From Candidatus Nanoclepta minutus (GTDB lineage: Archaea > Nanobdellota > Nanobdellia > Nanobdellales > Nanobdellaceae): 32,000 nucleotides of DNA. The position numbers and the translations under genes were made by a program. Positions 8,754 through 24,984 of this stretch are shown here, piece after piece (positions within the stretch are counted from its first letter, which is position 1; every line of letters starts with the position of its first letter). Location of the stretch: NCBI GenBank assembly GCA_003568775.1, contig MWMI01000004.1:43389-75388 (forward strand), given 5' to 3'. The notes under the pieces were generated by a model. That model did no database searches, was not told where the DNA came from, and saw only the letters and a list, made by a program, of their open reading frames with translations.

Positions 8754-8790
8754 AGGATTTCTTAAGTATATAAAGAATAATAATATTTAT

Positions 8791-8875
8791 GCCGCGGTGC
8801 CCGAGTGGACCAAGGGGTCTGGCTCGAGACCAGATCCCCGATAAGGGGACCGGGGTTCGAATCCCCGCCGCGGCG
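8791..8875 (+). tRNA. tRNA-Ser (anticodon CGA)
   Basis: I folded the cloverleaf by hand. The acceptor pairs GCCGCGG with CCGCGGC, and the anticodon stem pairs TCTGG with CCAGA around the loop CTCGAGA. A long variable arm pairs CCCC-GATA-GGGG, and the T arm is CGGGG-TTCGAAT-CCCCG. It is 85 nt and class II. Confidence 0.92.
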
Positions 8876-9213
8876 TAAGATTAAACCTCTCTATATTTAT
8901 CTATAAACCTTTTATAAAATTCCCATTATTCATTTGTTAACAAATAGAATTCGAATGGAGAATTAAAGAATTCTTTTATTAATATTCCGAAAACTTCTAA
9001 TTTTTTATCCCTATTTTTAAATTCTTCAGATACTATTGCGATGCCTATATTAGACTAAATAATAGTAACAGATATATAAATAAGTCAAATTATCCTTAAC
9101 TCTAACAGAGTCGATATAAATAAATGCAGCGAGATCAATAATCAAATAAACATTTACTTTTATTAATGGTTTTTGATAGCTCGAAATTATAAATACTATA
9201 CTAAATTACAATT

Positions 9214-10110
9214 TTAATCTCCTTTCCTTATAGCATAAATATAGCCTATTTTCATATTAGGATTGGATGCAGAAGGGTTGTAAATATTTTTAGGTTTTGT
9301 ATATTTTACATCAAAACCGTTATCTTCTAAATAATTATATAACTCTTCATAACCATAATGATATTCGATTTGAATTCTTTTGAACCTTTTTATTATATCT
9401 CTATCTTCGCTCAATATGTTATACTCACATCCTTCACAATCCATCTTTAGTACTGCCTCTTTGATATTAAACATCGAAAGTATTGTTTTTAAGGAATACA
9501 AATTTATTAACTTACCCTTCTCATCTTCACTTTCTTTTAGGTCAGATCCGATATCTGGTATAAAGCTTTCATCTATTCTCATTACTCTATCCTTACCATA
9601 TCCCGCATTCAACGGTATTATTTTATCTGTGCAACCATTTATGTTTATATTTTCGGTTAATAACTTAAAAAAGTAAGGATAAGGCTCTAACGCAATAATC
9701 TTTTTGGCTCCCTCAATACAAAAATAGATAGAAGAATCTCCAATGTTTGCTCCAATGTCGATAACTACTTCATTCCTTGGATTTAAAAATTTGTATTCTT
9801 CATTAGCGAAAACTGATACTAAATCTCCTTTCCAAGGTTCGATAAACTTTAGTTTGTGTTCTTTAAATATAAGAATAATTTTGTTATTTTCGATATCAAT
9901 ATCCTTAATATTGGGATATTTAAGTAAAAAAGCATACAAAGATGCCAACTCAGGATTTACTTCACATTTTTTTCCATTACTTCTAAGGATAACCTTTATT
10001 TTATAATTTGATTTACTACTCAATTTTCTAACTCTATATAAATTATATAATATAAATATCCAATTCCGATAAGCTTTTCTGTAACGAGATATTATATCGA
10101 TAAACCTCAT
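9214..10110 (-). CDS. FkbM-family SAM-dependent methyltransferase
   Basis: It has the SAM-binding motif VVIDIGANIGDSSIYF and a downstream LKMDCEGCEY block typical of Methyltransf_21/FkbM. Confidence 0.75.
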   Translation of the reverse strand: MRFIDIISRYRKAYRNWIFILYNLYRVRKLSSKSNYKIKVILRSNGKKCEVNPELASLYAFLLKYPNIKDIDIENNKIILIFKEHKLKFIEPWKGDLVSVFANEEYKFLNPRNEVVIDIGANIGDSSIYFCIEGAKKIIALEPYPYFFKLLTENININGCTDKIIPLNAGYGKDRVMRIDESFIPDIGSDLKESEDEKGKLINLYSLKTILSMFNIKEAVLKMDCEGCEYNILSEDRDIIKRFKRIQIEYHYGYEELYNYLEDNGFDVKYTKPKNIYNPSASNPNMKIGYIYAIRKGD

Positions 10111-10382: not shown

Positions 10383-11507
10383 CTAAGATAAAAATATCTC
10401 TTCAAATTTATCAACTACCTTTTTGATATCAAACAATTCCCTTGCTCTTTTAGCAACGTATTTTCTCTTTTCAAAATAACCTCTTGGATCTTCCTTCCAA
10501 AAGGTATAAATTTCTAATATTTTATTTGCAAAGGCTTCCGGATTATAACTATTTTTGATCCAACCAAAGTTCTTATCATAAATATTTAATAAATCCCTAA
10601 AGGCAACTATATTAGATCCTAAAAACGGGGAACCTGAGACTAGGGCTTCTACAACAGCTATTGGAAATCCTTCAAATCTAGAAGGAATAAAAAATAGAGA
10701 AGATTTTGATAAGATTTCTCTTTTGGTATTTTCATCTACAAATCCAAAATATTTAACGTTTTCTGGATATTTGCTTTCTAATAATCTTAGCATTTCTTCA
10801 TACTTTTTATCTCCAGAACCTGCAACATAAAACTTTATTTCTTTATTTTTATCCAAAACCTTCTTTATAGCTTCTATTAATACATCAAATCCTTTTTGTT
10901 CATGAATCCTACCCATAAACGTTAGTATAAACTCTTTATTATCTTTAGGATAAAGATATTCTTTAGAATTAACAAAATTAGGAACTAAATAAACGTTTTT
11001 AAAACCTAATTTTTCATAAAATTCCTTTTGAGCGGAATTTAAAATATGAATATATATTTTATGCTGATATTTTAACATTTTATTTTCCATTAATTTTATA
11101 ATATGAATTTTATATCTCCATTTTCTGTCATTATAATCTAAAAATGTAGTGTGATTTCCTATAATAATTCTATTTGCCTTTTTTGTATATATAGAGAGGA
11201 TGGGGTGTAAGAAATAGGAAGTAAAATTAACCAGATAAATATAATCTACATCTTTTAAAAGCATTAAGTCGCATAGACCTCTAAAAACCCTAAAGACTCC
11301 ATTAGAGAATTTATTTGATAATATATATCTAAACTTAATTATTTTTCCTAAATCTTTTGGCTTAATCCTAAACAGATCTCCATAATTACTAGAAATAACC
11401 CATACATTATACTTCCTATCAACAAGTTCGTTTCCTATCTTTATAACCCAATTCTCAGTACCTGCATATGTTTCTAGCCTAGTAAAAACAAAGAATACTA
11501 TCTTCAT
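10383..11507 (-). CDS. Glycosyltransferase, GT4 (group 1) family
   Basis: The 374-aa product has a GT-B layout and a C-terminal EX7E motif (FEGFPIAVVEALVSG). Confidence 0.85.
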   Translation of the reverse strand: MKIVFFVFTRLETYAGTENWVIKIGNELVDRKYNVWVISSNYGDLFRIKPKDLGKIIKFRYILSNKFSNGVFRVFRGLCDLMLLKDVDYIYLVNFTSYFLHPILSIYTKKANRIIIGNHTTFLDYNDRKWRYKIHIIKLMENKMLKYQHKIYIHILNSAQKEFYEKLGFKNVYLVPNFVNSKEYLYPKDNKEFILTFMGRIHEQKGFDVLIEAIKKVLDKNKEIKFYVAGSGDKKYEEMLRLLESKYPENVKYFGFVDENTKREILSKSSLFFIPSRFEGFPIAVVEALVSGSPFLGSNIVAFRDLLNIYDKNFGWIKNSYNPEAFANKILEIYTFWKEDPRGYFEKRKYVAKRARELFDIKKVVDKFEEIFLS

Positions 11508-11542
11508 AAAACTTTAAAGTTGGATTTAATATTTAATAGTTT

Positions 11543-12571
11543 ATGAAGCTCGGTATTTATGGCACTATTTATAATAACGCAGATACTGTAAAAACTACGA
11601 TAAAGACATTAGTTAATTCTATTGAGGACCTATTTGATGAAATAATCTTCGTTATAACAGATAATTACTCTGATGATGGAACATACGAAAAACTTTTAGA
11701 GCTGAAAAAAGAATATGAAAACTCTAAAATAAAAATAGAGATAATAAGAGAAAAAAGTACAAGGGGAAAAGGAAGACAAATCGCAATGGAATATCTTATA
11801 AACAATTATGATATAGATTTCGTGACATATACGGATTTCGATATAACATATTACCCATTTCAAAGAGACATCTTCAAAGCAATCATTGATAATATAAAAG
11901 ATTATGAAATATGGGGAGGTGTTGCTGGTCTTGCTACATATAAAACGTATAAAAGAATACTAGAAAGAGGAATCGAATGGCCTGATACAAACTTTTACGA
12001 AGATAACACATTCTTTTATCTTATTTCTACTAAAGCAAAAATACTGATAAAAGATTTATGCACTATTGGACACTCAAATGCTATCGTATATAATATCAAT
12101 AGAGAAAAAAGATATGCAAAAACAACTTTAAGATGGATCAAAAGATATCTAAAGACACAGTTAGATATATTAAGATCTTCTTTAACAATTTGGAGAGACA
12201 TAATAAATATGAAAAATATCGCATTTGGAAGAAAAATTTTTAACTTGGCTAAGGGAATAAATGCTCATTACTTACTAGAAAATATGAGAATTTACATTCT
12301 CCCTGAGGAAGTAGGTTTACCAGAAAACACATTCTATAGGTTCAGTACATATGCTCCTAGAATGTTATTAGCTAAAATAATTGATGATAAAAAAGCTAAA
12401 TTTATAAAAACTAGAGGTTTTCATTTCTTTAGAGACTTAAAGTTTGCTAAAAAATTTATAGAAGATCATGAAAAAGCTATATATAGAAATTTTGACTTTG
12501 ACATAAATAAAGTTGAAATATATAAAATAAGTGAAATATTTGAAAAAGTACCTTATTTAATACACTACTAA
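11543..12571 (+). CDS. Glycosyltransferase, GT2-like
   Basis: The N-terminal GT-A signature is GTIYNNADTV...IIFVITDNYSDDGTYEKL, with a D-x-D-like TDFD. The C-terminal half is not recognisable. Confidence 0.65.
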   Translation: MKLGIYGTIYNNADTVKTTIKTLVNSIEDLFDEIIFVITDNYSDDGTYEKLLELKKEYENSKIKIEIIREKSTRGKGRQIAMEYLINNYDIDFVTYTDFDITYYPFQRDIFKAIIDNIKDYEIWGGVAGLATYKTYKRILERGIEWPDTNFYEDNTFFYLISTKAKILIKDLCTIGHSNAIVYNINREKRYAKTTLRWIKRYLKTQLDILRSSLTIWRDIINMKNIAFGRKIFNLAKGINAHYLLENMRIYILPEEVGLPENTFYRFSTYAPRMLLAKIIDDKKAKFIKTRGFHFFRDLKFAKKFIEDHEKAIYRNFDFDINKVEIYKISEIFEKVPYLIHY

Positions 12572-13761
12572 TGAGGATTTTACTATTTCATCCATGGATA
12601 AAATCAAAAGGAGGTGCAGAGAGGTTAATATTAGAATACATAAGAAGATCTAAACATAAAATAGATATATTAACTTGGGTTTATTTATCAGATAAAAGCT
12701 TTGAAGAATTCAAAAAATACAAAATTATAAGCATATTTCCAGAATATTTAGAATCTGTATCTAGAAGCTTTTTATTAAGGGGAAGTTTTGGAATCCTTTC
12801 TATAATAAAAAATATATTAAAAGAAGGTTTTATTGAGAATTACGATCTCTTATTGATAAGCACTTCCGGTATAGCCGAACTAATCTTATTAAACAAAAAA
12901 ATAAATATACCTGTTGTTTTATACGTTCATACACCCCTAAGAGCAACCTATAAATATGATATCTATTGGAACTTTAAATACAGGTTTAAAAATGTTTTAT
13001 ATAAAGCAGTATATAAACTTGCTCTACATTCTTATAATTATTTAGAGAGAAAAGCATGGAAAAGAGTTAGCTTTGCGATATTTAATTCAGAATTATCCAG
13101 AAAAAGGGCTTTAGATAAAAAACTAATAGATATAGAAAAGACAAAGGTAATATATCCGGGGGTAGATATCAATTTAGAACCCAAAAACCAAGAAAACTAC
13201 TTTCTTTATATAAGTAGAATTGGGATGGCTAAAAGGCAAGAAATACTACTATATACATGGAAAATGTTTTCAAAAAAATATGGGGATTATAAACTAATAT
13301 TAGCCGGAAATCTAGAAAACAAAAAGTATTATAGAAAATTGTTAAGGATAATAAAAGTCTTTAATCTTAGGAATGTAGAAATTCTGACTAATCTACCATC
13401 AGAAAAAATAAAAGGATTACATGAACATTCCCTATGTGAAATACAGGTTCCTTTTATGGAAGATTTTGGAATTGCACCATTAGAATCTGTTGCTGCTGGA
13501 AAATACTTAATAAACGTTTATCCATCTGGAAATTACGAATTGTTAAAAGATTTTCCTGGTATATACTGGATAAAAGAAAGAATAGACAATATAAAAATGG
13601 CAAGGGAAGTCTATAAAGCTATGGAATACTTTATAAAAAATCAGGATAAATTAATAAACCTAGGATCAGAAAACAGAAAAAGATTTAAAAGATTAGATTT
13701 GTCTTGGGATAGATTCGCAAAAGAAATGGATAAAACCTTGGAAAGTCTAATATTTTATTGA
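12571..13761 (+). CDS. Glycosyltransferase, GT4 (group 1) family
   Basis: The N-terminus has KSKGGAERL. The C-terminus has the EX7E-type motif FMEDFGIAPLESVAAG. The start overlaps the upstream stop as TAATG. Confidence 0.8.
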   Translation: MRILLFHPWIKSKGGAERLILEYIRRSKHKIDILTWVYLSDKSFEEFKKYKIISIFPEYLESVSRSFLLRGSFGILSIIKNILKEGFIENYDLLLISTSGIAELILLNKKINIPVVLYVHTPLRATYKYDIYWNFKYRFKNVLYKAVYKLALHSYNYLERKAWKRVSFAIFNSELSRKRALDKKLIDIEKTKVIYPGVDINLEPKNQENYFLYISRIGMAKRQEILLYTWKMFSKKYGDYKLILAGNLENKKYYRKLLRIIKVFNLRNVEILTNLPSEKIKGLHEHSLCEIQVPFMEDFGIAPLESVAAGKYLINVYPSGNYELLKDFPGIYWIKERIDNIKMAREVYKAMEYFIKNQDKLINLGSENRKRFKRLDLSWDRFAKEMDKTLESLIFY

Positions 13762-14799
13762 AGATTCATATATTTCCTTAAGACTCTTATTTCTATTTCC
13801 AATACTAAACTTACCGTATTTTATTTCTTTCCAAGCATTTAAAGAAATCTCTTTAATTAAGTTAGTATTCTCTATTAAGCTACTTATAACATCTGTATAT
13901 TTCTTTATTTCATCTTTATCTCTCTTTATTATATATCCTGTCTTTTCGTTCTCTATTATCTCTCTTCTAGCAAATCCCTCAGAGGTAACAACTACATTAC
14001 CATATGACATCGCTTCCAAAATTGTAAAACCGAAACTATCTGAATAACCTGGATAAACATATATATGAGATTTTCTGTATAAATTCCTTAATCCTTCATC
14101 AGTTAAAGATTCTAACCATTTAATGAAATTATATTTCTTTAAGATCTTATCTGATATCCATTTTTTTGGTGTTACAATAAACATCTCTATATCATACCTC
14201 TTATTTAAATTTTCAAAGACTTTTAATACGGTACTTCCACCTTTAGCATAAAAATATCTTGCTACAAATAATAATCTTATTTTATCAAAATCCTTATCTA
14301 CATATTCTTCGGCAGGTACTGCTGGATAAATTACTTTTAGTTTTTCTCTTATTTTAGGATCTTTTCTTATTTCCTCTGGTATAGTATTATACGCCTCATA
14401 AGTCCATGGTAGTAGATATTTTAGATTCTTTTGCTTAAATAATTTTTTTATAATAATCTTCCCGATCCCGGAATAAGCTGGATAATGCGTAAAAAAGAAG
14501 ATATAATAATGCTCAAAGTCTGTAACATATGGTTTATCTGTAAATAAAAATAAATGAGAAGTATGATATAGATCTAAATCTGAACTAGATACTTTTCTAA
14601 TTTTAAAAATAGGAAATCTACCAATAGAAGAATAAATAATCCTCTTTACTTTTAAATAACTAATAAATTTTCTTGAAGATGTTATAAGAGTATCCTTTAT
14701 TTTATTTAAATAAATAACTCCGTCTGGCGGGTACAAAAATAAGTATTTATAATAAGAAGAATCTAGCTTTCCTAGACTCTCTACTCTAACTTTTATCAT
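13747..14799 (-). CDS. Glycosyltransferase, GT4-like
   Basis: The C-terminal domain has YSDSFGFTILEAMSYGNVVVTSE...EKTGYII. It converges on the previous gene with a 15-nt 3' overlap. Confidence 0.75.
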   Translation of the reverse strand: MIKVRVESLGKLDSSYYKYLFLYPPDGVIYLNKIKDTLITSSRKFISYLKVKRIIYSSIGRFPIFKIRKVSSSDLDLYHTSHLFLFTDKPYVTDFEHYYIFFFTHYPAYSGIGKIIIKKLFKQKNLKYLLPWTYEAYNTIPEEIRKDPKIREKLKVIYPAVPAEEYVDKDFDKIRLLFVARYFYAKGGSTVLKVFENLNKRYDIEMFIVTPKKWISDKILKKYNFIKWLESLTDEGLRNLYRKSHIYVYPGYSDSFGFTILEAMSYGNVVVTSEGFARREIIENEKTGYIIKRDKDEIKKYTDVISSLIENTNLIKEISLNAWKEIKYGKFSIGNRNKSLKEIYESSIKY

Positions 14800-14852: not shown

Positions 14853-15668
14853 ATGTCTGGTAAATATATAAATTATATTAAATGGTACATTGGCAGTATA
14901 AATAGCATAAGCGGTATTGGTAAATTAAAATTTGCAGCTACAGCACCAATACTTTTTGTTTATAATAAAATTAAAGGTAAAAGGGATAATATAAAGAATA
15001 TAACCCGTTTCGATCTTACTGTAAAGGTCTATGGGCATAAATTCGAATGTAGGAAAAACACACTTGATATAAGCTACATCATAAATTTCGAACCGGAAAC
15101 CACAGAATTTTTGTTAAATAAAAAAGGAAAAATATTCATAGATGTTGGAGCACATATCGGAAGATATTCTATATTGCTTTCTAAAAACTTCGAAAAAATA
15201 ATTTCCATTGAAGCTGATCCATATAATTATTCTCAATTGATTAGAAACACAAGATTAAATAGTCTATGGAATAAAGTAATACCGCTGAATATTGCCCTAA
15301 CAAATAATGATGGGATACTTAAATTAAACCTTTCAGAAGAAGGAGACGGAACACATTCAATTGTTGTTAATTATGGAAAAGGAAGCATAGAAGTCTTAGG
15401 TCTTAAACTAGATACGGTAATAGATTTATTAGGAATAGATCCAAAGGATATAGATGTAATTAAAATAGATGTAGAAGGGGCAGAATACTTCGTTCTACAG
15501 GGAATGAAAAAGGCTTTGAAAGATGGAAAACCAGTATTGGTTATTGAAATATGGGAAGATTCTAAATATAAAGAAAAAACTATAGAATTATTAAAAAAGT
15601 ATGGATATAAAATGATAAAAGAATTGGATAAAGGTTATGCTACAAATTACATTTTTGTTAAAGAATAA
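14853..15668 (+). CDS. FkbM-family SAM-dependent methyltransferase
   Basis: It has IFIDVGAHIGRYSILL and IKIDVEGAEYFVLQG. It is a paralog of 9214-10110 in the opposite orientation. Confidence 0.8.
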   Translation: MSGKYINYIKWYIGSINSISGIGKLKFAATAPILFVYNKIKGKRDNIKNITRFDLTVKVYGHKFECRKNTLDISYIINFEPETTEFLLNKKGKIFIDVGAHIGRYSILLSKNFEKIISIEADPYNYSQLIRNTRLNSLWNKVIPLNIALTNNDGILKLNLSEEGDGTHSIVVNYGKGSIEVLGLKLDTVIDLLGIDPKDIDVIKIDVEGAEYFVLQGMKKALKDGKPVLVIEIWEDSKYKEKTIELLKKYGYKMIKELDKGYATNYIFVKE

Positions 15669-16265: not shown

Positions 16266-17909
16266 ATGGTTTCACTAGAAGAGCTAAGGAAAGAAAATCT
16301 AGGAGAGAAACATAAGGTATTTGAATCTAAAATAATCTTAGATGATCCAAGATATAGGTTAGAAAGCATATACTTTTGGTTATTAGATTTCTTAAGGGAT
16401 GATTTAAAATTAAATGTTTCAAAAATTTCCGATGAATTTGGAGGATCTTTCGGATCAGTTTTCTATACAGATATAGTTAGAAGGGCTCAAAGCATTTTAA
16501 CTACTGCAAGAGAGATTGGAGGTCTATTAAATACGATAATAAAATCTATTGTAGACGTAAGTAACTCTTATAGAACTCTAGTATTCGAAAGATTACATAA
16601 ATTTGAAGATTTAAAATCCGATAATCCAGAGAAATCTTATACAGCATTAAAGGCTTTAAAATCCCTTTGGCTTGATAACGTAGATTCGAGGAAGGGAACA
16701 TATGCTCTCAGGAACTTGATTAAAGCAGGATATTCAACAGTTATCGATCTATTTTTATTAGCGGAAGATGGAGAAAAACTAAATGAACTTATATCTAAAG
16801 GAATTGCAAACAAAAGTATCCTAAACCATCCATCCTATAGGGAGATATCTTACTATGAAAAGAATAAAATTGTTAATGAAAGAGTTATATCTTTAGTAAA
16901 AACTAGATTAGCGGAGTTCTATGGTTGGCTAGAGGAATCTGAAAAGTATTTTAAGGAGAGAGCAAAATATTTAAAAGCTTACTTATTACATCAAGTAAAT
17001 TCCCTAATTTATTATTTAGAAATTGCTAAACCATACTTCAAAGCTGCAAGAGCTTTAAAACAGAAGGAATATAATATTCCAGATATAGTAAAAGGTTTCG
17101 AATCAGCAATAATTGAGATAACATTATTTGCAACCGATAAAGAGAAAGAATTAACAGAATGGGACAAAGATAAGAAAGATTTTATTAAAAAGAAATATAT
17201 ACCCTTATTCGAAGTAAACATAATAGCGAGGGTTAGACCAACACTACAGGCTATTTCCGTTGAAAGGACAGCCATGTATACATACATAGGAAGGATAGAC
17301 ATAGAGTATAGAGCATACGTCTTAACTAGGGAGGAATATGATGAGCTAGTAGCTAATAAGGAAATAGAGGATATCTTATATATACAAGGGATGACCGAAA
17401 CCTTCTTAGAAGGGATTACAGACGTTATATGCAACGTATACCTATATGAAAAAGTTATTTCTAATAGTAAGTTATTGGAAACTGCGAAGAAATTCCTAAA
17501 TAAGGATGAAATAACTAGTGAGAGGGATATTGTTTGGACTAAAGAACTAGTAAAAGAGCTAGAAAAAGTTGATAAGAATTTTTTAAAGGGATTGGAATGG
17601 ATAAATAAATATTTACCTTCTAAAGAGGAATTAGAAAAAAAGGAAGAAAAGAAAGAGGAAGAGAAAAAGAAAGAAAATACAATAAGCCTTATCTTCCCAA
17701 TAGCTAAACCCGCTGCTGATATATTCAAGAGCCTATTATATAATATATTTGAATTTATAGTAACCTATGGGAAGGATATATCAAACATAAGGTATTCTAC
17801 TTCAAAGAAAAAATTGGAAAAGGAAAGGGGAGATTTCATAGATGATGTAAAGAAAAAAGCTTGGCTAATATTCAATACCTCAAAGAAAAGCTTTGGTCTT
17901 GTAGCTTAA
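16266..17909 (+). CDS. Hypothetical protein, 547 aa, helical with a K/E-rich linker
   Basis: It is a long clean ORF with a verified ATG. I recognise no P-loop, TM segment, signal peptide or known motif. A K/E low-complexity tract is encoded at nt 17624-17678. Its stop lies 1 nt before the next ATG. Confidence 0.7.
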   Translation: MVSLEELRKENLGEKHKVFESKIILDDPRYRLESIYFWLLDFLRDDLKLNVSKISDEFGGSFGSVFYTDIVRRAQSILTTAREIGGLLNTIIKSIVDVSNSYRTLVFERLHKFEDLKSDNPEKSYTALKALKSLWLDNVDSRKGTYALRNLIKAGYSTVIDLFLLAEDGEKLNELISKGIANKSILNHPSYREISYYEKNKIVNERVISLVKTRLAEFYGWLEESEKYFKERAKYLKAYLLHQVNSLIYYLEIAKPYFKAARALKQKEYNIPDIVKGFESAIIEITLFATDKEKELTEWDKDKKDFIKKKYIPLFEVNIIARVRPTLQAISVERTAMYTYIGRIDIEYRAYVLTREEYDELVANKEIEDILYIQGMTETFLEGITDVICNVYLYEKVISNSKLLETAKKFLNKDEITSERDIVWTKELVKELEKVDKNFLKGLEWINKYLPSKEELEKKEEKKEEEKKKENTISLIFPIAKPAADIFKSLLYNIFEFIVTYGKDISNIRYSTSKKKLEKERGDFIDDVKKKAWLIFNTSKKSFGLVA

Positions 17910-17910
17910 A

Positions 17911-19923
17911 ATGGAAGAGGTATTCGGTAGAAAACAAGGTACTTCAACGAACATATCTTTAATAAACCAGTTAAAAGAACTGGAGAATAAGATAAGGCTA
18001 GGTTATCCTGCAGTCGAAATTGGAGTTGCAACTTTCGGACAATGGGAAGCCATACCAAAAGTTATATGGGAAGATATAGCAAGAAAGGCAAGGATAAACA
18101 AAATAGATCTATCCCTACATGCTCCAGTGAGCGTGGAGGGTCAACTATCTACAGCACAGTTTCCAATAATAAGTGGAATAGAATTTAAAGGACAGGCTGC
18201 ATTAATAAGCGAATCTTCGAAGAAAAAAGTATCCCAAGAACTAAAGGAAATATTGGATACTGCTGCAAACTTAGGTAAAATATACGGAGAGAACATAAAA
18301 GTAACTATGCACGTTACATCTGGCTTAGGCGAAACTATATGGAGTAAAGAATATGAAGATCACCTAAAGGATTATCTAAGAAAAAATAATGAAAAATTTG
18401 AAGATTTAAAGAAAAAACTTCTAGATTTAGGAATAATAAATAAAGAAGAATATCAAAAAATTAAGGATCCGGAAGATTTACCTTCATGGGTCTATGCGGT
18501 AAGTAGCGGTATAACAATAGAAGTACCTGGAGGACATGCCTTAATAAACATAGAGGATATTAGGGATAGAAGGTATATAACTCAAAGATTGGAGAGTTTA
18601 AGAGAAAAATTGGGAACAGAAAAATTTGAGGAAACTATCGTAGATAGGATTTATAACTTGAACGAAGATTACTGGAATAAATTTTTTATTGATATAAATA
18701 GAGCCTTTTATTTAATTACGAAGGATGTTACAAACATAGAAAAGACTTTCCCTTTAAAACAAGACTATCAAGCTGGAGAATTCTTAACTTACTTAAAGAG
18801 CCTGAAGGATAAGCTAAACATACTTTCTAACTCTATAGACACTTACCTATACCACGTAAAGGAAAAAGGAAAAATAGACAATATAAAACATACTTTAGAG
18901 CTCTATAATAAGATTAACGATCTAAAGAGTAAGATAGAAAACTTTGAGAAAAATCTGTTTAATTTATATGAAAAATACAAGAGTCTAACGGATTATGACT
19001 TAAGAAAGGAGTTCAGAAACTTGTTAAATGAAAGTAAAGTTTTAGAAGAAGTTAGGGATCTCGTATCGGGAAACGGTAGAATAGTGTTTAACTTAGCTTT
19101 AGAAGAAATGAACAAGAATAAAGTACCGGTAATAAAACCCTTTCAAGAGGTAGCATTAAGTTCTGCTGTAGATGTAGTAAAGAGAGGTATAGAGGCCTTC
19201 TTAGAAGATGTTAAGAAAGATAAAGAGAAATTTGAAAGGATTGAGGAGATATTTCCAAAGCTATTGTTTGAACATATTTATCCAGAAGATATTGGATCTA
19301 GACCAGATATGCTAATAAAGTTTATAGATAAAAGTAGGAAAGCTCTAATAGAAACATTAGAAAAATATCCAGAAATTAAAGAAAAAATTATAAAGAAATA
19401 TGGAAACTTGGAAAAGTTTTCAGATGAGATAATAGGAGTAACCTTAGACATAGCTCACCTGAAGTTATTTGAAAGGTATGGATATAGTAAAGAAGATATA
19501 CTCCAGTGGGAGAGGAAACTGAAACCATACATAAAGCATATCCATGTATCGGAATCCAAGGGAGGAATGGATACCCATATTCCGCTGGGAATGGAAGGTG
19601 ATGAAATAATAAAAGCAGAGATAGAAGAACTAAAAGATCTATTGGCAAAGGAAGGTATATCCGTAATACATGAAGCAGGCGGATGGTATACTGGAAGATT
19701 CTATGAAGAATTGGGATCCGAATATTCTTACTTTATTTATAAAACCCTACCATACAATCTATACTCTATTTCCGATATATATTCTCAGAGCTTCCTACCA
19801 ACATACTATGAGAACATATACTTCTCTGGAATGCCGACCGTCTTTGACTATACAACTGGCTTTCTAGCATTACCATTAGACCTAGGTAGCAGAAGGGAAA
19901 GACAAGAACAGTCTAGTTATTAA
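17911..19923 (+). CDS. Endonuclease IV / xylose-isomerase-like TIM-barrel protein split by a ~300-aa helical insertion
   Basis: Candidate metal-ligand motifs occur in the canonical order. They are LSLHAP (H70), VTMHVTSG (H134), ITIEVPGG (E204) or LLFEH (E454), LDIAH (D513/H516), HIHVSESKG (H545), MDTH (D554/H556) and VIHEAG (E588). A K/E/L/N-rich helical region spans about aa 215-500. The C-terminal tail is rich in Tyr. Confidence 0.65.
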   Translation: MEEVFGRKQGTSTNISLINQLKELENKIRLGYPAVEIGVATFGQWEAIPKVIWEDIARKARINKIDLSLHAPVSVEGQLSTAQFPIISGIEFKGQAALISESSKKKVSQELKEILDTAANLGKIYGENIKVTMHVTSGLGETIWSKEYEDHLKDYLRKNNEKFEDLKKKLLDLGIINKEEYQKIKDPEDLPSWVYAVSSGITIEVPGGHALINIEDIRDRRYITQRLESLREKLGTEKFEETIVDRIYNLNEDYWNKFFIDINRAFYLITKDVTNIEKTFPLKQDYQAGEFLTYLKSLKDKLNILSNSIDTYLYHVKEKGKIDNIKHTLELYNKINDLKSKIENFEKNLFNLYEKYKSLTDYDLRKEFRNLLNESKVLEEVRDLVSGNGRIVFNLALEEMNKNKVPVIKPFQEVALSSAVDVVKRGIEAFLEDVKKDKEKFERIEEIFPKLLFEHIYPEDIGSRPDMLIKFIDKSRKALIETLEKYPEIKEKIIKKYGNLEKFSDEIIGVTLDIAHLKLFERYGYSKEDILQWERKLKPYIKHIHVSESKGGMDTHIPLGMEGDEIIKAEIEELKDLLAKEGISVIHEAGGWYTGRFYEELGSEYSYFIYKTLPYNLYSISDIYSQSFLPTYYENIYFSGMPTVFDYTTGFLALPLDLGSRRERQEQSSY

Positions 19924-22514: not shown

Positions 22515-22530
22515 CATATTCTATAAAAAC

Positions 22531-22602
22531 TGGACCCGCCGGGATTCGAACCCGGGATCTCCGGCTAGCGAGGCCGGCGTCCTGCCACTAGACTACGGGC
22601 CC
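22531..22602 (-). tRNA. tRNA-Ala (anticodon CGC)
   Basis: The reverse complement folds as a cloverleaf. The acceptor pairs GGGCCCG with CGGGTCC and includes the alanine identity pair G3:U70. The anticodon stem pairs CCGGC with GCCGG around the loop CTCGCTA, and the T loop is TTCGAAT. Position 37 is U, which is unusual. Confidence 0.88.
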
Positions 22603-22605
22603 ATA

Positions 22606-22694: not shown

Positions 22695-23156
22695 ATGAGG
22701 GGGTTTAGTACAATAATAGCCAGTGCAATACTGTTCATTGCAGCAGCAGTTGCAGCATATATATTTGTATCTGGAGCTATGGGTAGCTTATCAAACCTTC
22801 AGGGTGCTATGATAGAAAGAGAAAAACTGATTTCTTCAAGGTTACAGTCTGTAATCGATATAGATGCTTGTTCTTATAACAACGCAACAAATATAGCATC
22901 GTTTTATGTTACTAATAGAGGTACTTATCCCCTAAACGCTTCTATGACAAAGATATTCATAAACGGTATTCTATTCAATTCTACAATAGACTTTATTCAG
23001 AAGATATATAATGATCCTGCATGGAACAGGTATGAAACTATTAGGGTTTCCGTTACTCTACCATCTGGCGTTTATCAGGTAAGGGTTGTCTCATCAGTTG
23101 GTTCGTACGATGAAAAAATAGCATATATAACCAATACTTCCTGTAGCGTTTCATGA
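22695..23156 (+). CDS. FlaF/FlaG (ArlF/ArlG)-like protein with an N-terminal TM/class III-like segment
   Basis: MRGFSTIIASAILFIAAAVAAYIFVSG resembles the MGFS... opening of archaeal FlaF. A beta-sandwich-like block follows (SFYVTNRGTYPLNASMTKIFINGILF). Confidence 0.6.
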   Translation: MRGFSTIIASAILFIAAAVAAYIFVSGAMGSLSNLQGAMIEREKLISSRLQSVIDIDACSYNNATNIASFYVTNRGTYPLNASMTKIFINGILFNSTIDFIQKIYNDPAWNRYETIRVSVTLPSGVYQVRVVSSVGSYDEKIAYITNTSCSVS

Positions 23157-23593
23157 GAGGCGATCTATCACAGATATTCGGTGCTATAACGGGCTTTATA
23201 TTAATAATTGTCGTTATTTTAATATTCTCCTACATAACTTCATATAACGTCCAGAACTTCGATAAAATTTTAGAAAAAAACTATGAATTTTATGAAAAGA
23301 GGAGTTTGGAATTAGTGGATTTTTTAAATAATTCCACAAACATATCAAACCCTCTGATAATTATAAAAAATATTGGAAAGGTTTCCTTGGATCCATCATG
23401 CTTCAGTTTATATATTGAGGGTAATAAAATCAACTTTACATATCAGATTAATGAAGTATACCATGATAACCTGCTAAACCCATCCGAAAATGCTGCCTTA
23501 TACTTTAGTTATCCGAATACAGGATGGAAAAAAGTTGTTTTAATAAGTTGTAATGGAAAAAGGTTTGAAACTTTAATATATTTCTATTCATAA
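23153..23593 (+). CDS. FlaG/FlaF-like protein with an N-terminal TM segment
   Basis: It has an MRG start, a hydrophobic helix and LIIIKNIGKVSLDPSCFSLYIEGNKINF, matching the N.G..L...I.G pattern of FlaF/G domains. Its start overlaps the upstream stop as ATGA. Confidence 0.5.
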   Translation: MRGDLSQIFGAITGFILIIVVILIFSYITSYNVQNFDKILEKNYEFYEKRSLELVDFLNNSTNISNPLIIIKNIGKVSLDPSCFSLYIEGNKINFTYQINEVYHDNLLNPSENAALYFSYPNTGWKKVVLISCNGKRFETLIYFYS

Positions 23594-24984
23594 TGAGAGG
23601 CTTTGAGGAAGTAATGTATGCAGCACTAGCTTTGATGGTTTCTGTAATAGTTACCTATATTTTTATCTCAAATACAAACTTTCCAACTTATTCCGTATCA
23701 AAACCTATTGAATCTATGAAAACATCCCTCGAACTAGTTGATTATGGAATAGTTTACCCAAACACATTAGTAATATATTTAAGACCCACTTCACCAGTAA
23801 ACATCTCAAACGTTATAATCTATATAAACAGACAAAAGGCAATAATAAAAAAGATTGGGAATACACCTGGAGATATTGTAGATCCTAACAAAGGGGATTT
23901 AATGATGGTCTCGTTGGATAACTTTCAAGGCAATAGCGTAGATATATTTGTTTCGGGATATAACCTTCAGTCTAGAAGCTTTAGCATAAACCTGGAAGGA
24001 AAGAAACCCATTACTCCTACAAATATAGCTACATACTTCTATAGAATTCCAATAACAATAAAAGAGAATTCTGGAAATAATTTAACGGATTATCAGGTTA
24101 ATGTAATAGTAAACACCCAGAACTTGATTTTACAAGGAAAAATGAGATATGATTGTGGAGATATTAGGTTTACATACGTTTATCCAAACGGAACAGAGGT
24201 TAAAATAACTTACTGGATAGAATCGGGATGTAATACTCAAAATACAAAGATTTGGGTAAAGGTTCCATCTATTTCAGCAAATGGAAATGCTACTATTTAT
24301 ATTTATTATGGGAATCCTTTTGCAACAAGTGGGAGTAATCCAAATAGCGTATTTATATACTTTGACACTTTTGATGATCTTTCAAAATGGTCAACTTATA
24401 GGGGAAGCTCATGTACCTCAATAAATATATACAACTTTAATGGTAACAATGTTGTGGGTCTTAGTGTCTCTGGGGGAACTTCAGATTCCAGAACGTGGTG
24501 TATAATATATAATCTAACTGTTTCCCTTCCCAGTTCCTTTAAAATTGACGTAGACGTTTATACAGATAATATTGTTGATACTTTACCTTACTTCAACAGC
24601 ATAACTGGTCCTTTCTATGTCTTTAGATTTGATGCAAGAGGTAGCTATTATGATCTCATTGGATATTATCCTGCGGGAGCTACCTCTACACAAGTAATTG
24701 CATCTACATCAATAGTTTCTTCAAAAAACACATGGTATCATATGCAAATTATAAGGTTCCCAAATGGTACATGGTATCTATACAAGGGAGGTGATTTATA
24801 CTCCCTAGGAACTCTCGAAGCAAGCGTTACACATACAACAACAACTTCTGGTTATTTGGGTCTTACCGGAGACGGAGCTACTGGAACAACCTACTTCGAT
24901 AATTTGATTGTCAGAAAGTATACCTCCCCAGAACCTTCTGTTAGTTTAGGAAATGAAGAAACAACTTTCTATTATCCATCCTAA
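23593..24984 (+). CDS. Pilin/FlaF-like N-terminus fused to DUF2341 and a concanavalin/LamG-like domain
   Basis: It has an MRG start and a TM helix. The DUF2341 signature is YRIPITIKENSGNNLTDYQVNV...DIRFTY...ITYWIE...KIWVKVPSISANGNATIYIYYGNP. The C-terminal beta-rich region ends in YFDNLIVRKY. Confidence 0.7.
   Translation: MRGFEEVMYAALALMVSVIVTYIFISNTNFPTYSVSKPIESMKTSLELVDYGIVYPNTLVIYLRPTSPVNISNVIIYINRQKAIIKKIGNTPGDIVDPNKGDLMMVSLDNFQGNSVDIFVSGYNLQSRSFSINLEGKKPITPTNIATYFYRIPITIKENSGNNLTDYQVNVIVNTQNLILQGKMRYDCGDIRFTYVYPNGTEVKITYWIESGCNTQNTKIWVKVPSISANGNATIYIYYGNPFATSGSNPNSVFIYFDTFDDLSKWSTYRGSSCTSINIYNFNGNNVVGLSVSGGTSDSRTWCIIYNLTVSLPSSFKIDVDVYTDNIVDTLPYFNSITGPFYVFRFDARGSYYDLIGYYPAGATSTQVIASTSIVSSKNTWYHMQIIRFPNGTWYLYKGGDLYSLGTLEASVTHTTTTSGYLGLTGDGATGTTYFDNLIVRKYTSPEPSVSLGNEETTFYYPS

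What the first reader, a model, noticed from the sequence alone, without database searches (positions are those of the whole stretch)
17911..19923. Endonuclease IV-like metal-ligand set preserved across a ~300-aa coiled-coil-like insertion (split TIM barrel)
**Ligand motifs.** Reading the 670-aa product against the AP-endonuclease-2 / xylose-isomerase-like barrel, every ligand motif appears in the canonical order:
- HAP (H70)
- MHVTSG (H134)
- IEVPGG (E204) or LLFEH (E454)
- LDIAH with D+3=H (D513/H516)
- HVSESKG, compare HLNDSKG (H545)
- MDTH with D+2=H (D554/H556)
- IHEAG (E588)

From memory, this mirrors the nine ligands of E. coli Nfo: H69, H109, E145, D179, H182, H216, D229, H231 and E261.

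**Insertion.** The N-terminal and C-terminal halves of the barrel are separated by about 285-310 residues of K/E/L/N-rich, heptad-like sequence (roughly aa 215-500, nt 18553-19410). A Tyr-rich tail follows the barrel (aa ~600-650). A catalytic barrel split by a long helical arm recalls the head/coiled-coil layout of SMC/Rad50 proteins. I know of no described example for this fold.
Basis: partly seen in the sequence, partly recalled or inferred. Interest (0 to 1): 0.75.

Follow-up and report, generated by a model that had tools for sequence, protein, structure and literature searches.

The report
Nanoarchaeal TIM-barrel metalloenzyme with helical insert
This gene from the tiny symbiotic archaeon Candidatus Nanoclepta minutus encodes a barrel-shaped metal enzyme that keeps the full nine-residue metal site of the DNA-repair enzyme endonuclease IV, yet is interrupted by a ~315-residue helical domain and always travels with an unknown partner gene; the pair is conserved across the phylum Nanoarchaeota and has never been studied.

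Summary
ORF 17911-19923 (+) encodes a 670-aa protein. Nine His/Asp/Glu residues (H70, H134, E454, D513, H516, H545, D554, H556, E588) are the only invariant acidic or His residues across homologs down to ~20% identity. Seven of them align column for column with E. coli Nfo ligands. E204 is not conserved; E454 is the β4 Glu. The insert is therefore aa ~135-449, not 215-500.

With the insert excised in silico, the protein passes Pfam PF01261, and the family profile hits PDB 3WQO (MJ1311) at E=3e-11 across the junction. The two halves are one xylose-isomerase-like barrel.

AlphaFold predicts the insert as a β-hairpin plus helices of 26-42 aa, a bundle rather than an SMC/Rad50-type arm.

No curated EndoIV model matches, and N. 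equitans, a member of the same phylum, has a separate canonical EndoIV.

The architecture is common: at least 226 sequence clusters and at least 472 species genomes, almost all Nanoarchaeota and all annotated "hypothetical".

An orphan 547-aa gene (16266-17909) abuts it with a 1-nt spacer. It lies upstream in 49 of 57 informative loci.

Best reading: a capped, probably trinuclear-metal phosphoesterase that works with this partner; its substrate is unknown. This is a new variant of a known fold.

The parts
17911..19923 (+). BARREL gene. 670-aa protein, identical to RIB35240.1, 'hypothetical protein BXU00_02850' of Candidatus Nanoclepta minutus.
17911..18312 (+). N-terminal part of the barrel (aa 1-134). 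Contains the conserved N-terminal motif (T13, Q20, E23), β1 at 34-38, β2 at 66-70 ending in H70 (HAP), and β3 at 130-134 ending in H134.
   Evidence: AF2 strands. Invariant columns. PF01261 alignment across the junction.
18313..19257 (+). Insertion between β3 and β4 (aa 135-449, ~315 aa). Only N251 and W255 are conserved across the family.
   Evidence: Pairwise identity is 18-21%, against 36-39% in the barrel halves.
19258..19710 (+). C-terminal part of the barrel (aa 450-600). β4 ends in E454, β5 carries D513/H516, β6 carries H543/H545, the β7 loop carries D554/H556 (followed by P-L-G-M-E-G), and β8 ends in E588.
19711..19920 (+). Tyr-rich, low-confidence C-terminal tail (aa 601-670). It ends in a conserved linear motif, ...F-x-x-L-P-x-x-L-G-(G/S)..., which in other lineages continues ...SRFSGxP.
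18118..18120 (+). Codon for H70, aligned with Nfo H69.
18310..18312 (+). Codon for H134, aligned with Nfo H109.
19270..19272 (+). Codon for E454, the inferred equivalent of Nfo E145. It is invariant and lies at the end of predicted β4.
   Evidence: MAFFT misregisters this column.
19447..19458 (+). Codons for D513..H516, aligned with Nfo D179/H182.
19543..19545 (+). Codon for H545, aligned with Nfo H216.
19570..19578 (+). Codons for D554..H556, aligned with Nfo D229/H231.
19672..19674 (+). Codon for E588, the inferred equivalent of Nfo E261. It is invariant and follows predicted β8 (584-587).
   Evidence: MAFFT misregisters this column.
16266..17909 (+). PARTNER gene. 547-aa orphan protein, 100% identical to BA065_01195 of Nanoarchaeota archaeon NZ13-N. 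Its stop codon (TAA, 17907-17909) is one base from the BARREL ATG. Predicted structure: two very long helices (65-116 and 205-263) plus a sheet of long β-strands (281-354).

Best explanation
The gene encodes a single xylose-isomerase-like (β/α)8 barrel. Its β3-to-β4 connection has been expanded into a ~315-residue, mostly helical cap domain. Because the insert leaves the barrel directly after the β3 ligand H134, the cap should sit on the catalytic face.

The barrel keeps the complete nine-residue His/Asp/Glu set that binds three metal ions in endonuclease IV. I therefore infer a tri-metal (Zn/Mn) hydrolase that cleaves a phosphoester bond.

It is made from the same transcript as, and most likely acts in a complex with, the orphan PARTNER protein encoded immediately upstream. 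In most other Nanoarchaeota a fast-evolving ~200-aa coiled-coil protein is encoded between the two.

The substrate is not established. A nucleic-acid end or lesion is the most likely guess. The protein is not the lineage's ordinary EndoIV.

Shown: the ORF, the one-barrel topology by homology, ligand invariance, family size and distribution, and gene linkage.

Inferred: metal content, phosphoesterase chemistry, cap position, and physical complex with PARTNER.
For: One barrel:
- The spliced protein passes PF01261 with one alignment spanning the junction.
- The barrel-only profile hits 3WQO/MJ1311 at E=3e-11, profile 70-261 against chain 72-253.
- AF2 (pLDDT 72, pTM 0.72) places strands at 34-38, 66-70, 130-134, 450-454, 508-513, 541-546 and 584-587, with each ligand at a strand end.

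Ligands:
- Nine of 17 invariant columns are the predicted ligands, and they are the only invariant H/D/E residues of 124.
- Seven of nine columns are in register with Nfo and MJ1311.
- MJ1311 aligns with Nfo through the same motifs (E=9e-7).

Family and selection:
- 226 cluster representatives score E<=1e-30, and the top 150 are all 586-721 aa.
- At least 472 species genomes carry it, and the top hits are nearly all Nanoarchaeota.
- The insert is present at the same site in all 22 sampled members.

Linkage:
- PARTNER and BARREL are separated by 1 nt.
- The PARTNER homolog is 29% identical (E=2e-43) next to a distant barrel homolog.
- PARTNER is upstream on the same strand in 49 of 57 loci with enough flank.

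Chemistry: from my own knowledge (Hosfield et al. 1999, Cell 98:397), trinuclear sites built from this ligand set catalyse phosphodiester hydrolysis in EndoIV. A phosphodiesterase of the same superfamily (CbiR, NF041277) is among the weak NCBIfam hits.
Against: - No metal content or activity has been measured.
- The β7 loop carrying D554/H556 and everything after residue 587 are low-confidence in the model. I could not inspect coordinates, so ligand geometry is unverified.
- Foldseek matches of the full model are weak (best E=0.09) and are to ketose 3-epimerases, not EndoIV.
- The most frequent weak NCBIfam hit is fructoselysine 3-epimerase (17 of 22 members).
- The closest solved relative, MJ1311p, has the same nine residues but no known function, and its fragment is at least as close by sequence to IolI and psicose epimerases as to EndoIV.
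- PARTNER is absent within 6 kb upstream in 8 of 57 loci.
- The physical interaction is inferred only from gene order.
Confidence: 0.55

Rival explanations
1. It is a bona fide DNA AP endonuclease / 3'-repair diesterase, an EndoIV orthologue that has gained an accessory domain, and it does base-excision repair in Nanoarchaeota.
For: The full nine-ligand set is present and seven columns are in register with Nfo. The closest solved relative, MJ1311, was listed as the predicted EndoIV homolog of M. jannaschii (PMC2770678 Table 1).
Against: - No curated EndoIV model matches any of 22 barrel-only sequences at E<=1.
- hhalign against Nfo gives 1.6% probability.
- 3WQO is not among Nfo's PDB relatives.
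- The positions of Nfo Tyr72/Leu73 are not conserved.
- N. equitans has a separate, abundant canonical 293-aa EndoIV, NEQ368 (PMC3149612).
- A conserved partner and a 315-aa cap are unnecessary for EndoIV chemistry.
Confidence: 0.15
2. It is a sugar or ketose isomerase/epimerase, or another non-hydrolytic one- or two-metal enzyme of the superfamily. The extra His/Asp residues would serve structure or a second metal rather than phosphoester cleavage.
For: - The best Foldseek hits are D-tagatose and D-psicose 3-epimerases.
- 17 of 22 members weakly hit fructoselysine 3-epimerase NF007360 (best 7.7e-10).
- The MJ1311 fragment is closest by sequence to IolI and psicose epimerases.
- The E-D-H-E subset used by those enzymes is contained within the nine.
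Against: - All hits lie far below the curated cut-offs (305 bits for NF007360).
- Five residues beyond the epimerase E-D-H-E set are invariant down to 20% identity. From my own knowledge, single-metal epimerases do not require them.
- Nanoarchaeota have very reduced sugar metabolism (my own knowledge), yet the gene is near-universal in the phylum.
- The 1-nt linkage to a non-metabolic orphan protein also argues against this reading.
Confidence: 0.15
3. It is a phosphodiesterase for a non-nucleic-acid substrate, such as a lipid head group, a glycerophosphodiester or a cofactor nucleotide loop as in CbiR. Such an enzyme could help a lipid- and cofactor-scavenging symbiont process host-derived molecules.
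For: - Five members weakly hit the cobamide-remodelling phosphodiesterase CbiR (6.8e-7).
- The cap domain over the active site would suit a small or amphipathic substrate.
- PARTNER's β-sheet region gives low-probability Foldseek hits to START/Ups1/Bet v1-type lipid binders.
- The EndoIV DNA-binding residues are not conserved.
Against: - The CbiR and START hits are weak (probability <=0.28 for the latter).
- Neither protein has a membrane segment or signal peptide.
- There are no lipid or cofactor genes in the conserved neighbourhood.
Confidence: 0.15
4. It is mainly a structural or scaffold protein whose helical insert and Tyr-rich tail mediate assembly, with a vestigial metal site.
For: More than half of the protein is non-barrel (insert plus tail). 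The partner is rich in long helices. The C-terminal linear motif is conserved.
Against: The nine ligands are the most conserved residues in the whole protein, while the insert is the least conserved part. That is the opposite of what a vestigial active site would show.
Confidence: 0.05

Closest known systems
MJ1311p of Methanocaldococcus jannaschii (PDB 3WQO). Deposited as 'Uncharacterized protein MJ1311'; published, from my memory, as a D-tagatose 3-epimerase-like protein (Uechi et al. 2014, Acta Cryst F). The paper could not be retrieved here.
   Same: It is the only PDB sequence hit by the barrel-only family profile (E=3e-11, across the excision junction). The motifs match: HAP, VHxG, FD-x-GH, H-x-H-x-x-DN and D-x-HL-x-x-G-x-G. 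It keeps the EndoIV-type ligands, and its function is also unknown.
   Different: It is ~293 aa with no insert, no Tyr-rich tail and no known partner gene. From memory, its β3-α3 loop (Glu125-Leu126-Trp127) covers the neighbouring subunit's metal site. That is exactly the loop where the Nanoarchaeota family carries its 315-aa insertion.
Endonuclease IV (E. coli Nfo, PDB 1QTW; yeast Apn1).
   Same: Both are TIM barrels of the same Pfam family (PF01261). All nine metal-ligand positions are present in the same order, and seven are in register in an automated alignment.
   Different: - There is no detectable profile similarity (hhalign 1.6%; no curated EndoIV model hit).
- The size is 670 aa against ~285 aa.
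- The DNA-inserting Tyr72/Leu73 positions are not conserved.
- N. equitans has a separate canonical EndoIV.
Ketose 3-epimerases and IolI-like enzymes: D-tagatose/D-psicose 3-epimerase, fructoselysine 3-epimerase FrlC, IolI.
   Same: These give the best, though weak, structural and NCBIfam matches. They share the E-D-H-E core of the metal site.
   Different: From my own knowledge these enzymes use one metal and lack the additional invariant His/Asp set. All scores lie far below the curated cut-offs. None has a β3-β4 insertion.
SMC/Rad50 head-plus-coiled-coil proteins
   Same: A catalytic globular domain is interrupted by a long helical segment.
   Different: The head is a TIM barrel, not an ABC ATPase. 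The predicted helices are 26-42 aa and form a bundle rather than two helices of 150 aa or more with a hinge or hook.

Membership tests
Xylose isomerase-like TIM barrel (Pfam PF01261, AP_endonuc_2) | Scores above Pfam's gathering threshold with an alignment that covers most of the profile. | tested here: met
   Full-length protein: 28.8 bits against a cut-off of 31.1, C-terminal part only. With aa 141-442 excised: 31.6 bits, spliced residues 30-278 against profile 7-218/249. 21 of 22 members match, best E=1.5e-16. All 10 close homologs hit the family when scanned full-length.
Xylose isomerase-like TIM barrel (Pfam PF01261, AP_endonuc_2) | A closed (β/α)8 barrel in three dimensions, formed by both halves. 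| tested here: inconclusive
Endonuclease IV (Nfo/Apn1) | Nine ligands of the trinuclear metal cluster (Nfo H69, H109, E145, D179, H182, H216, D229, H231, E261). | tested here: met
   All nine equivalents are invariant in 22 sequences. Seven columns coincide with Nfo in MAFFT L-INS-i. The two Glu are assigned by invariance, order and predicted strand ends.
Endonuclease IV (Nfo/Apn1) | Recognised by curated EndoIV sequence models, or by profile similarity to Nfo. | tested here: not met
   No EndoIV model appears among the NCBIfam hits at E<=1 for 22 barrel-only sequences. hhalign of the family against Nfo gives 1.6% probability. A PDB search with the family profile finds no EndoIV entry.
Endonuclease IV (Nfo/Apn1) | DNA-recognition residues that insert at the lesion (Nfo Arg37, Tyr72, Leu73; from my own knowledge of Hosfield et al. 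1999). | tested here: not met
   In the alignment, the column under Nfo Tyr72 is variable and aliphatic in the family, and the Arg37 region does not align. The alignment is of low identity, so this result is indicative only.
Endonuclease IV (Nfo/Apn1) | AP-endonuclease / 3'-diesterase activity and three bound Zn/Mn ions. | not testable with these tools
   This needs recombinant protein, activity assays and metal analysis.
MJ1311p-like orphan barrels (PDB 3WQO) | Significant sequence similarity over the barrel, with the same ligand motifs. | tested here: met
   E=3e-11, profile 70-261 against chain 72-253. tblastn with the MJ1311 fragment hits the barrel gene in most loci at 1e-10 to 1e-5.
MJ1311p-like orphan barrels (PDB 3WQO) | A compact ~290-aa single-domain architecture. 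| tested here: not met
   The window protein is 670 aa, with 240-339 aa inserted after β3 in every member and a ~70-aa tail.
SMC/Rad50-type head-coiled-coil proteins | An ABC-ATPase head, and two long continuous antiparallel helices joined by a hinge or hook. | tested here: not met
   No ATPase or SMC domain is detected. The longest predicted helical stretch is 42 aa, and the insert contains five or six helices plus a β-hairpin. Its structural matches are four-helix bundles.
Ketose 3-epimerase / FrlC | Score above the curated model cut-off (NF007360, 305 bits). | tested here: not met
   The best E-value is 7.7e-10 among 22 members, and the window member scores 11.8 bits.
Known anti-phage defence systems (PADLOC) | A match to any defence-protein model. 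| tested here: not met
   There are no hits for BARREL or PARTNER.

The most novel reading that the evidence does not exclude
BARREL, PARTNER and, in most lineages, the small coiled-coil protein form a previously unrecognised multi-subunit machine specific to Nanoarchaeota. A tri-metal phosphoesterase active site would be gated by helical domains contributed by both large subunits. It would do an essential job peculiar to these genome-reduced symbionts, for example processing host-derived nucleic acids or phospholipids, or a lineage-specific nucleic-acid maturation or repair step. PARTNER would represent a new fold.
Probability: 0.2. Interest if true: 0.8.

Novelty: new variant of a known kind. 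Interest (0 to 1): 0.55.

Why it matters
Nanoarchaeota have some of the smallest cellular genomes, so a ~650-aa protein plus a ~500-aa partner kept across the phylum is very likely important. Neither has a name, a paper or a solved structure.

The barrel shows that the EndoIV-type nine-ligand site exists in at least one large lineage outside the EndoIV family. That adds to the single orphan example, MJ1311p.

It is also a clear natural case of a TIM barrel that tolerates a 240-339-residue domain inserted between β3 and β4. This is of interest for enzyme evolution and design.

Working out the substrate could reveal a missing step in how these obligate symbionts maintain or acquire nucleic acids or lipids.

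Tried and rejected
- **E204 as the β4 ligand.** Rejected because it is not conserved.
- **SMC/Rad50-like arm.** Rejected on the predicted helix lengths and the absence of an ATPase head.
- **Full-length sequence or profile against PDB.** Only coiled-coil noise. The barrel had to be spliced in silico before it became visible.
- **hhalign of the barrel-only profile against a single Nfo sequence.** Failed, 1.6% probability.
- **Homolog search on Nfo to build a diverse EndoIV profile.** It returned only enterobacterial sequences at least 85% identical, so it added no depth.
- **PARTNER.** No hit in Pfam, NCBIfam, PADLOC or PDB sequences. No significant fold match in PDB or BFVD.
- **Other module genes.** The ~200-aa middle gene and the downstream nucleotidyltransferase found in Woese/Pacearchaeota loci have no copy in this window.
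- **Literature.** Searches for MJ1311/3WQO, Nanoarchaeota plus TIM barrel/PF01261, and Nanoclepta found nothing on this family.
- **Middle-gene profile hits to PARTNER.** A weak hit (E~1e-5) was judged to be coiled-coil or low-complexity similarity and was not pursued.
Full report
**1. What is there**

The window is archaeal and AT-rich, at 25-37% GC. ORF 17911-19923 (+) is intact, starts with ATG and encodes 670 aa. The exact sequence is in public databases. NCBI lists it as RIB35240.1, 'hypothetical protein BXU00_02850 [Candidatus Nanoclepta minutus]'. UniRef auto-names it 'Xylose isomerase-like TIM barrel domain-containing protein'. The upstream gene product is 100% identical to a hypothetical protein of 'Nanoarchaeota archaeon NZ13-N'. 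The window therefore comes from a hot-spring nanoarchaeon of the family Nanopusillaceae.

**2. Checking the ligand observation**

On the full-length protein, Pfam sees only a sub-threshold AP_endonuc_2 match on residues 500-580 (28.8 bits against a cut-off of 31.1). Neither the protein nor its family profile finds any barrel in PDB sequences.

A word-indexed search found nine homologs. An exhaustive profile search found 628 cluster representatives, 226 of them at E<=1e-30. The best 150 are all 586-721 aa, and many match end to end.

In a 22-sequence alignment reaching ~20% identity, only 17 columns are invariant. Nine of these are H70, H134, E454, D513, H516, H545, D554, H556 and E588. They are the only invariant residues among the protein's 124 His/Asp/Glu. 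The probability that nine pre-named residues all fall into the invariant set is about 3e-16.

**3. Are the two halves one barrel?**

I excised aa 141-442 and the tail from all 22 sequences and re-aligned them. Three lines of evidence follow.

- The spliced window protein passes the Pfam threshold as a single alignment: spliced residues 30-278 against profile positions 7-218 of 249, 31.6 bits. 21 of 22 members match, the best at 1.5e-16.
- The barrel-only profile hits one PDB barrel, 3WQO ('Uncharacterized protein MJ1311'), at E=3e-11. Profile positions 70-261 align with chain residues 72-253, straight across the excision junction.
- AlphaFold2 on the full-length protein (10-sequence alignment, pLDDT 72, pTM 0.72) predicts strands at 34-38, 66-70, 130-134, 450-454, 508-513, 541-546 and 584-587. 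Each predicted ligand lies at or just after a strand end.

**4. Mapping to endonuclease IV**

I took E. coli Nfo from NC_000913. That these residues bind the three Zn ions is my own knowledge (Hosfield et al. 1999).

Direct profile-to-sequence comparison with Nfo fails (hhalign 1.6%). A bridge works, however:

- The MJ1311 fragment printed aligns with Nfo at E=9e-7 through HPG, xEN, D-x-x-HA, H-x-xD and D-x-H-x-x-GEGN.
- The family aligns with MJ1311 through the same motifs.
- In one MAFFT L-INS-i alignment of the 22 family members, MJ1311 and Nfo, seven ligand columns coincide: H70=H69, H134=H109, D513=D179, H516=H182, H545=H216, D554=D229 and H556=H231.

The two Glu columns are misregistered, because the helices around β4 and β8 differ in length. 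I assign E454 and E588 by invariance, order and predicted strand ends.

**5. The insert and the tail**

With E454 as the β4 Glu, the insertion is aa ~135-449 (nt 18313-19257). Homologs carry 240-339 aa at the same place.

The model shows, in order:

- short helices at 146-195;
- helices at 243-279, 288-318, 326-354 and 361-402 (the last one kinked), with high confidence (pLDDT ~90);
- a return helix at 411-447.

The best local structural matches are four-helix bundles: a designed bundle with TM 0.75, and the FAT domain. The composition is K/L/E/I-rich. Heptad-type periodicity is significant in only two helices.

The insert is the least conserved part of the protein, at 18-21% pairwise identity against 36-39% for the barrel halves. 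The exceptions are N251 (invariant) and W255 (90% conserved) at the start of the first long helix. This is a bundle-like cap domain, not an SMC/Rad50-type arm. Because it leaves the barrel directly after a β-strand-end ligand, it should lie on the catalytic face; this is inference.

The tail (aa 601-670) is 15.7% Tyr and is predicted to be disordered. It ends in a conserved linear motif, F-x-x-L-P-x-x-L-G-G, extended in other lineages to ...SRFSGxP. Neither protein has a transmembrane segment.

**6. Family membership**

The protein belongs to the PF01261 superfamily. It is not a member of the EndoIV family by any curated test:

- No EndoIV model is among the NCBIfam hits of the 22 barrel-only sequences. 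The hits are weak and generic: fructoselysine 3-epimerase in 17 of 22, CbiR phosphodiesterase in 5, and hydroxypyruvate isomerase in 4, all far below their cut-offs.
- 3WQO is not among Nfo's PDB relatives.
- The MJ1311 fragment is about equally distant from IolI and psicose epimerases (1e-7 to 1e-5) and from EndoIV entries (~1e-4).
- Kiyonari et al. 2009 listed MJ1311 as the predicted EndoIV homolog of M. jannaschii (PMC2770678).

From memory, the 3WQO paper (Uechi et al. 2014) reported that MJ1311p keeps the nine EndoIV residues but lacks a DNA-binding groove. It also reported that its β3-α3 loop, from the neighbouring subunit, covers the metal site. I could not retrieve that paper. If the recollection is right, the Nanoarchaeota insert sits in exactly that lid-forming loop.

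N. equitans has a separate, abundant, canonical 293-aa EndoIV, NEQ368 (PMC3149612). That argues against the 670-aa protein being the housekeeping AP endonuclease of the lineage.

**7. Distribution and gene context**

A scan of one genome per species found at least 472 genomes that encode a relative. The best 80 are Nanopusillaceae, Nanobsidianus stetteri, Woesearchaeota, Pacearchaeota and unclassified 'Nanoarchaeota' or 'archaeon' MAGs. There are single MAGs labelled Aenigmarchaeum, Patescibacteria and Bacillota. The last two carry archaeal-looking neighbours and are probably mis-binned.

The 547-aa gene at 16266-17909 ends one base before the BARREL start codon. Its homolog sits upstream of a barrel homolog that is only ~26-31% identical (29% identity between the partners, E=2e-43). 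Across the fetched loci it is upstream on the same strand in 49 of the 57 that have more than 3.5 kb of flank, with a median gap of 656 nt.

In Woese/Pacearchaeota the gap holds a fast-evolving ~200-aa coiled-coil protein (37 loci). A nucleotidyltransferase (PF01909) follows the barrel in 57 loci. Both are absent from this window, where SecY follows with its own TATA-like element.

PARTNER has no hit in Pfam, NCBIfam, PADLOC or PDB sequences. A confident model (pLDDT 83) shows two ~55-aa helices plus a sheet of long strands. It has no significant fold match in PDB or BFVD.

**8. Interpretation**

The most economical reading is a cap-domain-bearing metallohydrolase, probably trinuclear, of the xylose-isomerase-like barrel superfamily. 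It is co-expressed with an orphan partner and probably complexed with it.

Phosphoester hydrolysis is inferred from the ligand set alone. The substrate is unknown.

Rivals are a true AP endonuclease, a sugar isomerase/epimerase, a non-nucleic-acid phosphodiesterase and a scaffold. Each is weighed in its own section of this report.

**9. Verdict**

The split-barrel and ligand interpretation is supported, with corrected boundaries. The SMC/Rad50 analogy and EndoIV membership are not supported.

It is a new variant of a known fold: a large, phylum-wide, wholly uncharacterised family with a conserved orphan partner. I score interest at 0.55. It is a solid lead that can be tested directly at the bench, but it does not overturn any current view.

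Noticed in passing
window 16266-17909 (+): An orphan 547-aa protein conserved across Nanoarchaeota. It has no match in any family library and no significant fold match (two ~55-aa helices plus a sheet of long β-strands). Weak Foldseek hits to START/Ups1/Bet v1-like lipid binders and to ClyA/EmrA-type helical hairpins are unverified.
   Followed up: partly
L015-L083 (for example L032:7853-8707), immediately downstream of the barrel gene: In 57 Woese/Pacearchaeota loci a ~284-aa nucleotidyltransferase (PF01909/Polbeta) follows the barrel gene on the same strand. Its C-terminal helical domain contains an R-x4-H string (RRSPLH). It is absent from the Nanopusillaceae arrangement and from this window.
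   Followed up: partly
L001:5339-6004, L036:4157-4783 and 35 other loci, between PARTNER and BARREL: A fast-evolving 139-252-aa acidic coiled-coil protein occupies the gap between the two conserved genes in most non-Nanopusillaceae lineages. Only 16 of 37 cluster together at phmmer E<1e-3.
   Followed up: partly
window 19711-19920 (aa 601-670 of the barrel protein): The C-terminal tail ends in a family-wide linear motif (F-S-x-L-P-x-x-L-G-G...SRFSGxP). It superficially resembles LPxTG or docking peptides, but there is no TM segment after it. A subset of homologs has P-Q-Q-H-F-x-L-Y-G, loosely like a PCNA-binding PIP box. Its function is unknown.
   Followed up: no
window 22695-23156, 23153-23593 and 23593-24984 (+): The cluster comprises a 153-aa protein with a hydrophobic pilin/archaellin-like N-terminus (its syntenic L002 homolog hits PF01917, Flagellin_arch-type), a 146-aa ORF, and a 463-aa DUF2341 protein. 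It may be a type IV pilus-like surface structure in a symbiont.
   Followed up: no
window 9214-10110 (-) and 14853-15668 (+): Two FkbM-type methyltransferase paralogs flank a block of glycosyltransferase genes (10383-14799). This looks like a surface-glycan island.
   Followed up: no
L057 (JAHYJW010000002.1, 'Patescibacteria group bacterium') and L043 (DATKUW010000032.1, 'Bacillota bacterium'): MAGs labelled bacterial carry the barrel-partner module plus neighbours shared with Woese/Pacearchaeota loci: clusters c5 and c7, which by my own reading look like archaeal ribosomal proteins (not tested against any family library), and the GluRS-like c9. They are probably mis-binned or mislabelled contigs. 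Similarly, some members of a Nanopusillaceae 90% cluster are labelled Aenigmatarchaeota.
   Followed up: no
window 17012-17728 (-): A 238-aa TTG-start antisense ORF inside PARTNER is Ser/Phe-rich low-complexity sequence. It mirrors the K/E-rich sense strand and is almost certainly not a gene.
   Followed up: no
window 8790-8876 (+) and 22530-22603 (-): tRNA-Ser(CGA) and tRNA-Ala(CGC) genes. The window also encodes TruD, Trp/Tyr-type and class II aminoacyl-tRNA synthetases, RNase J-like β-CASP, an M50 protease and a glycogen-phosphorylase/synthase-like protein.
   Followed up: no
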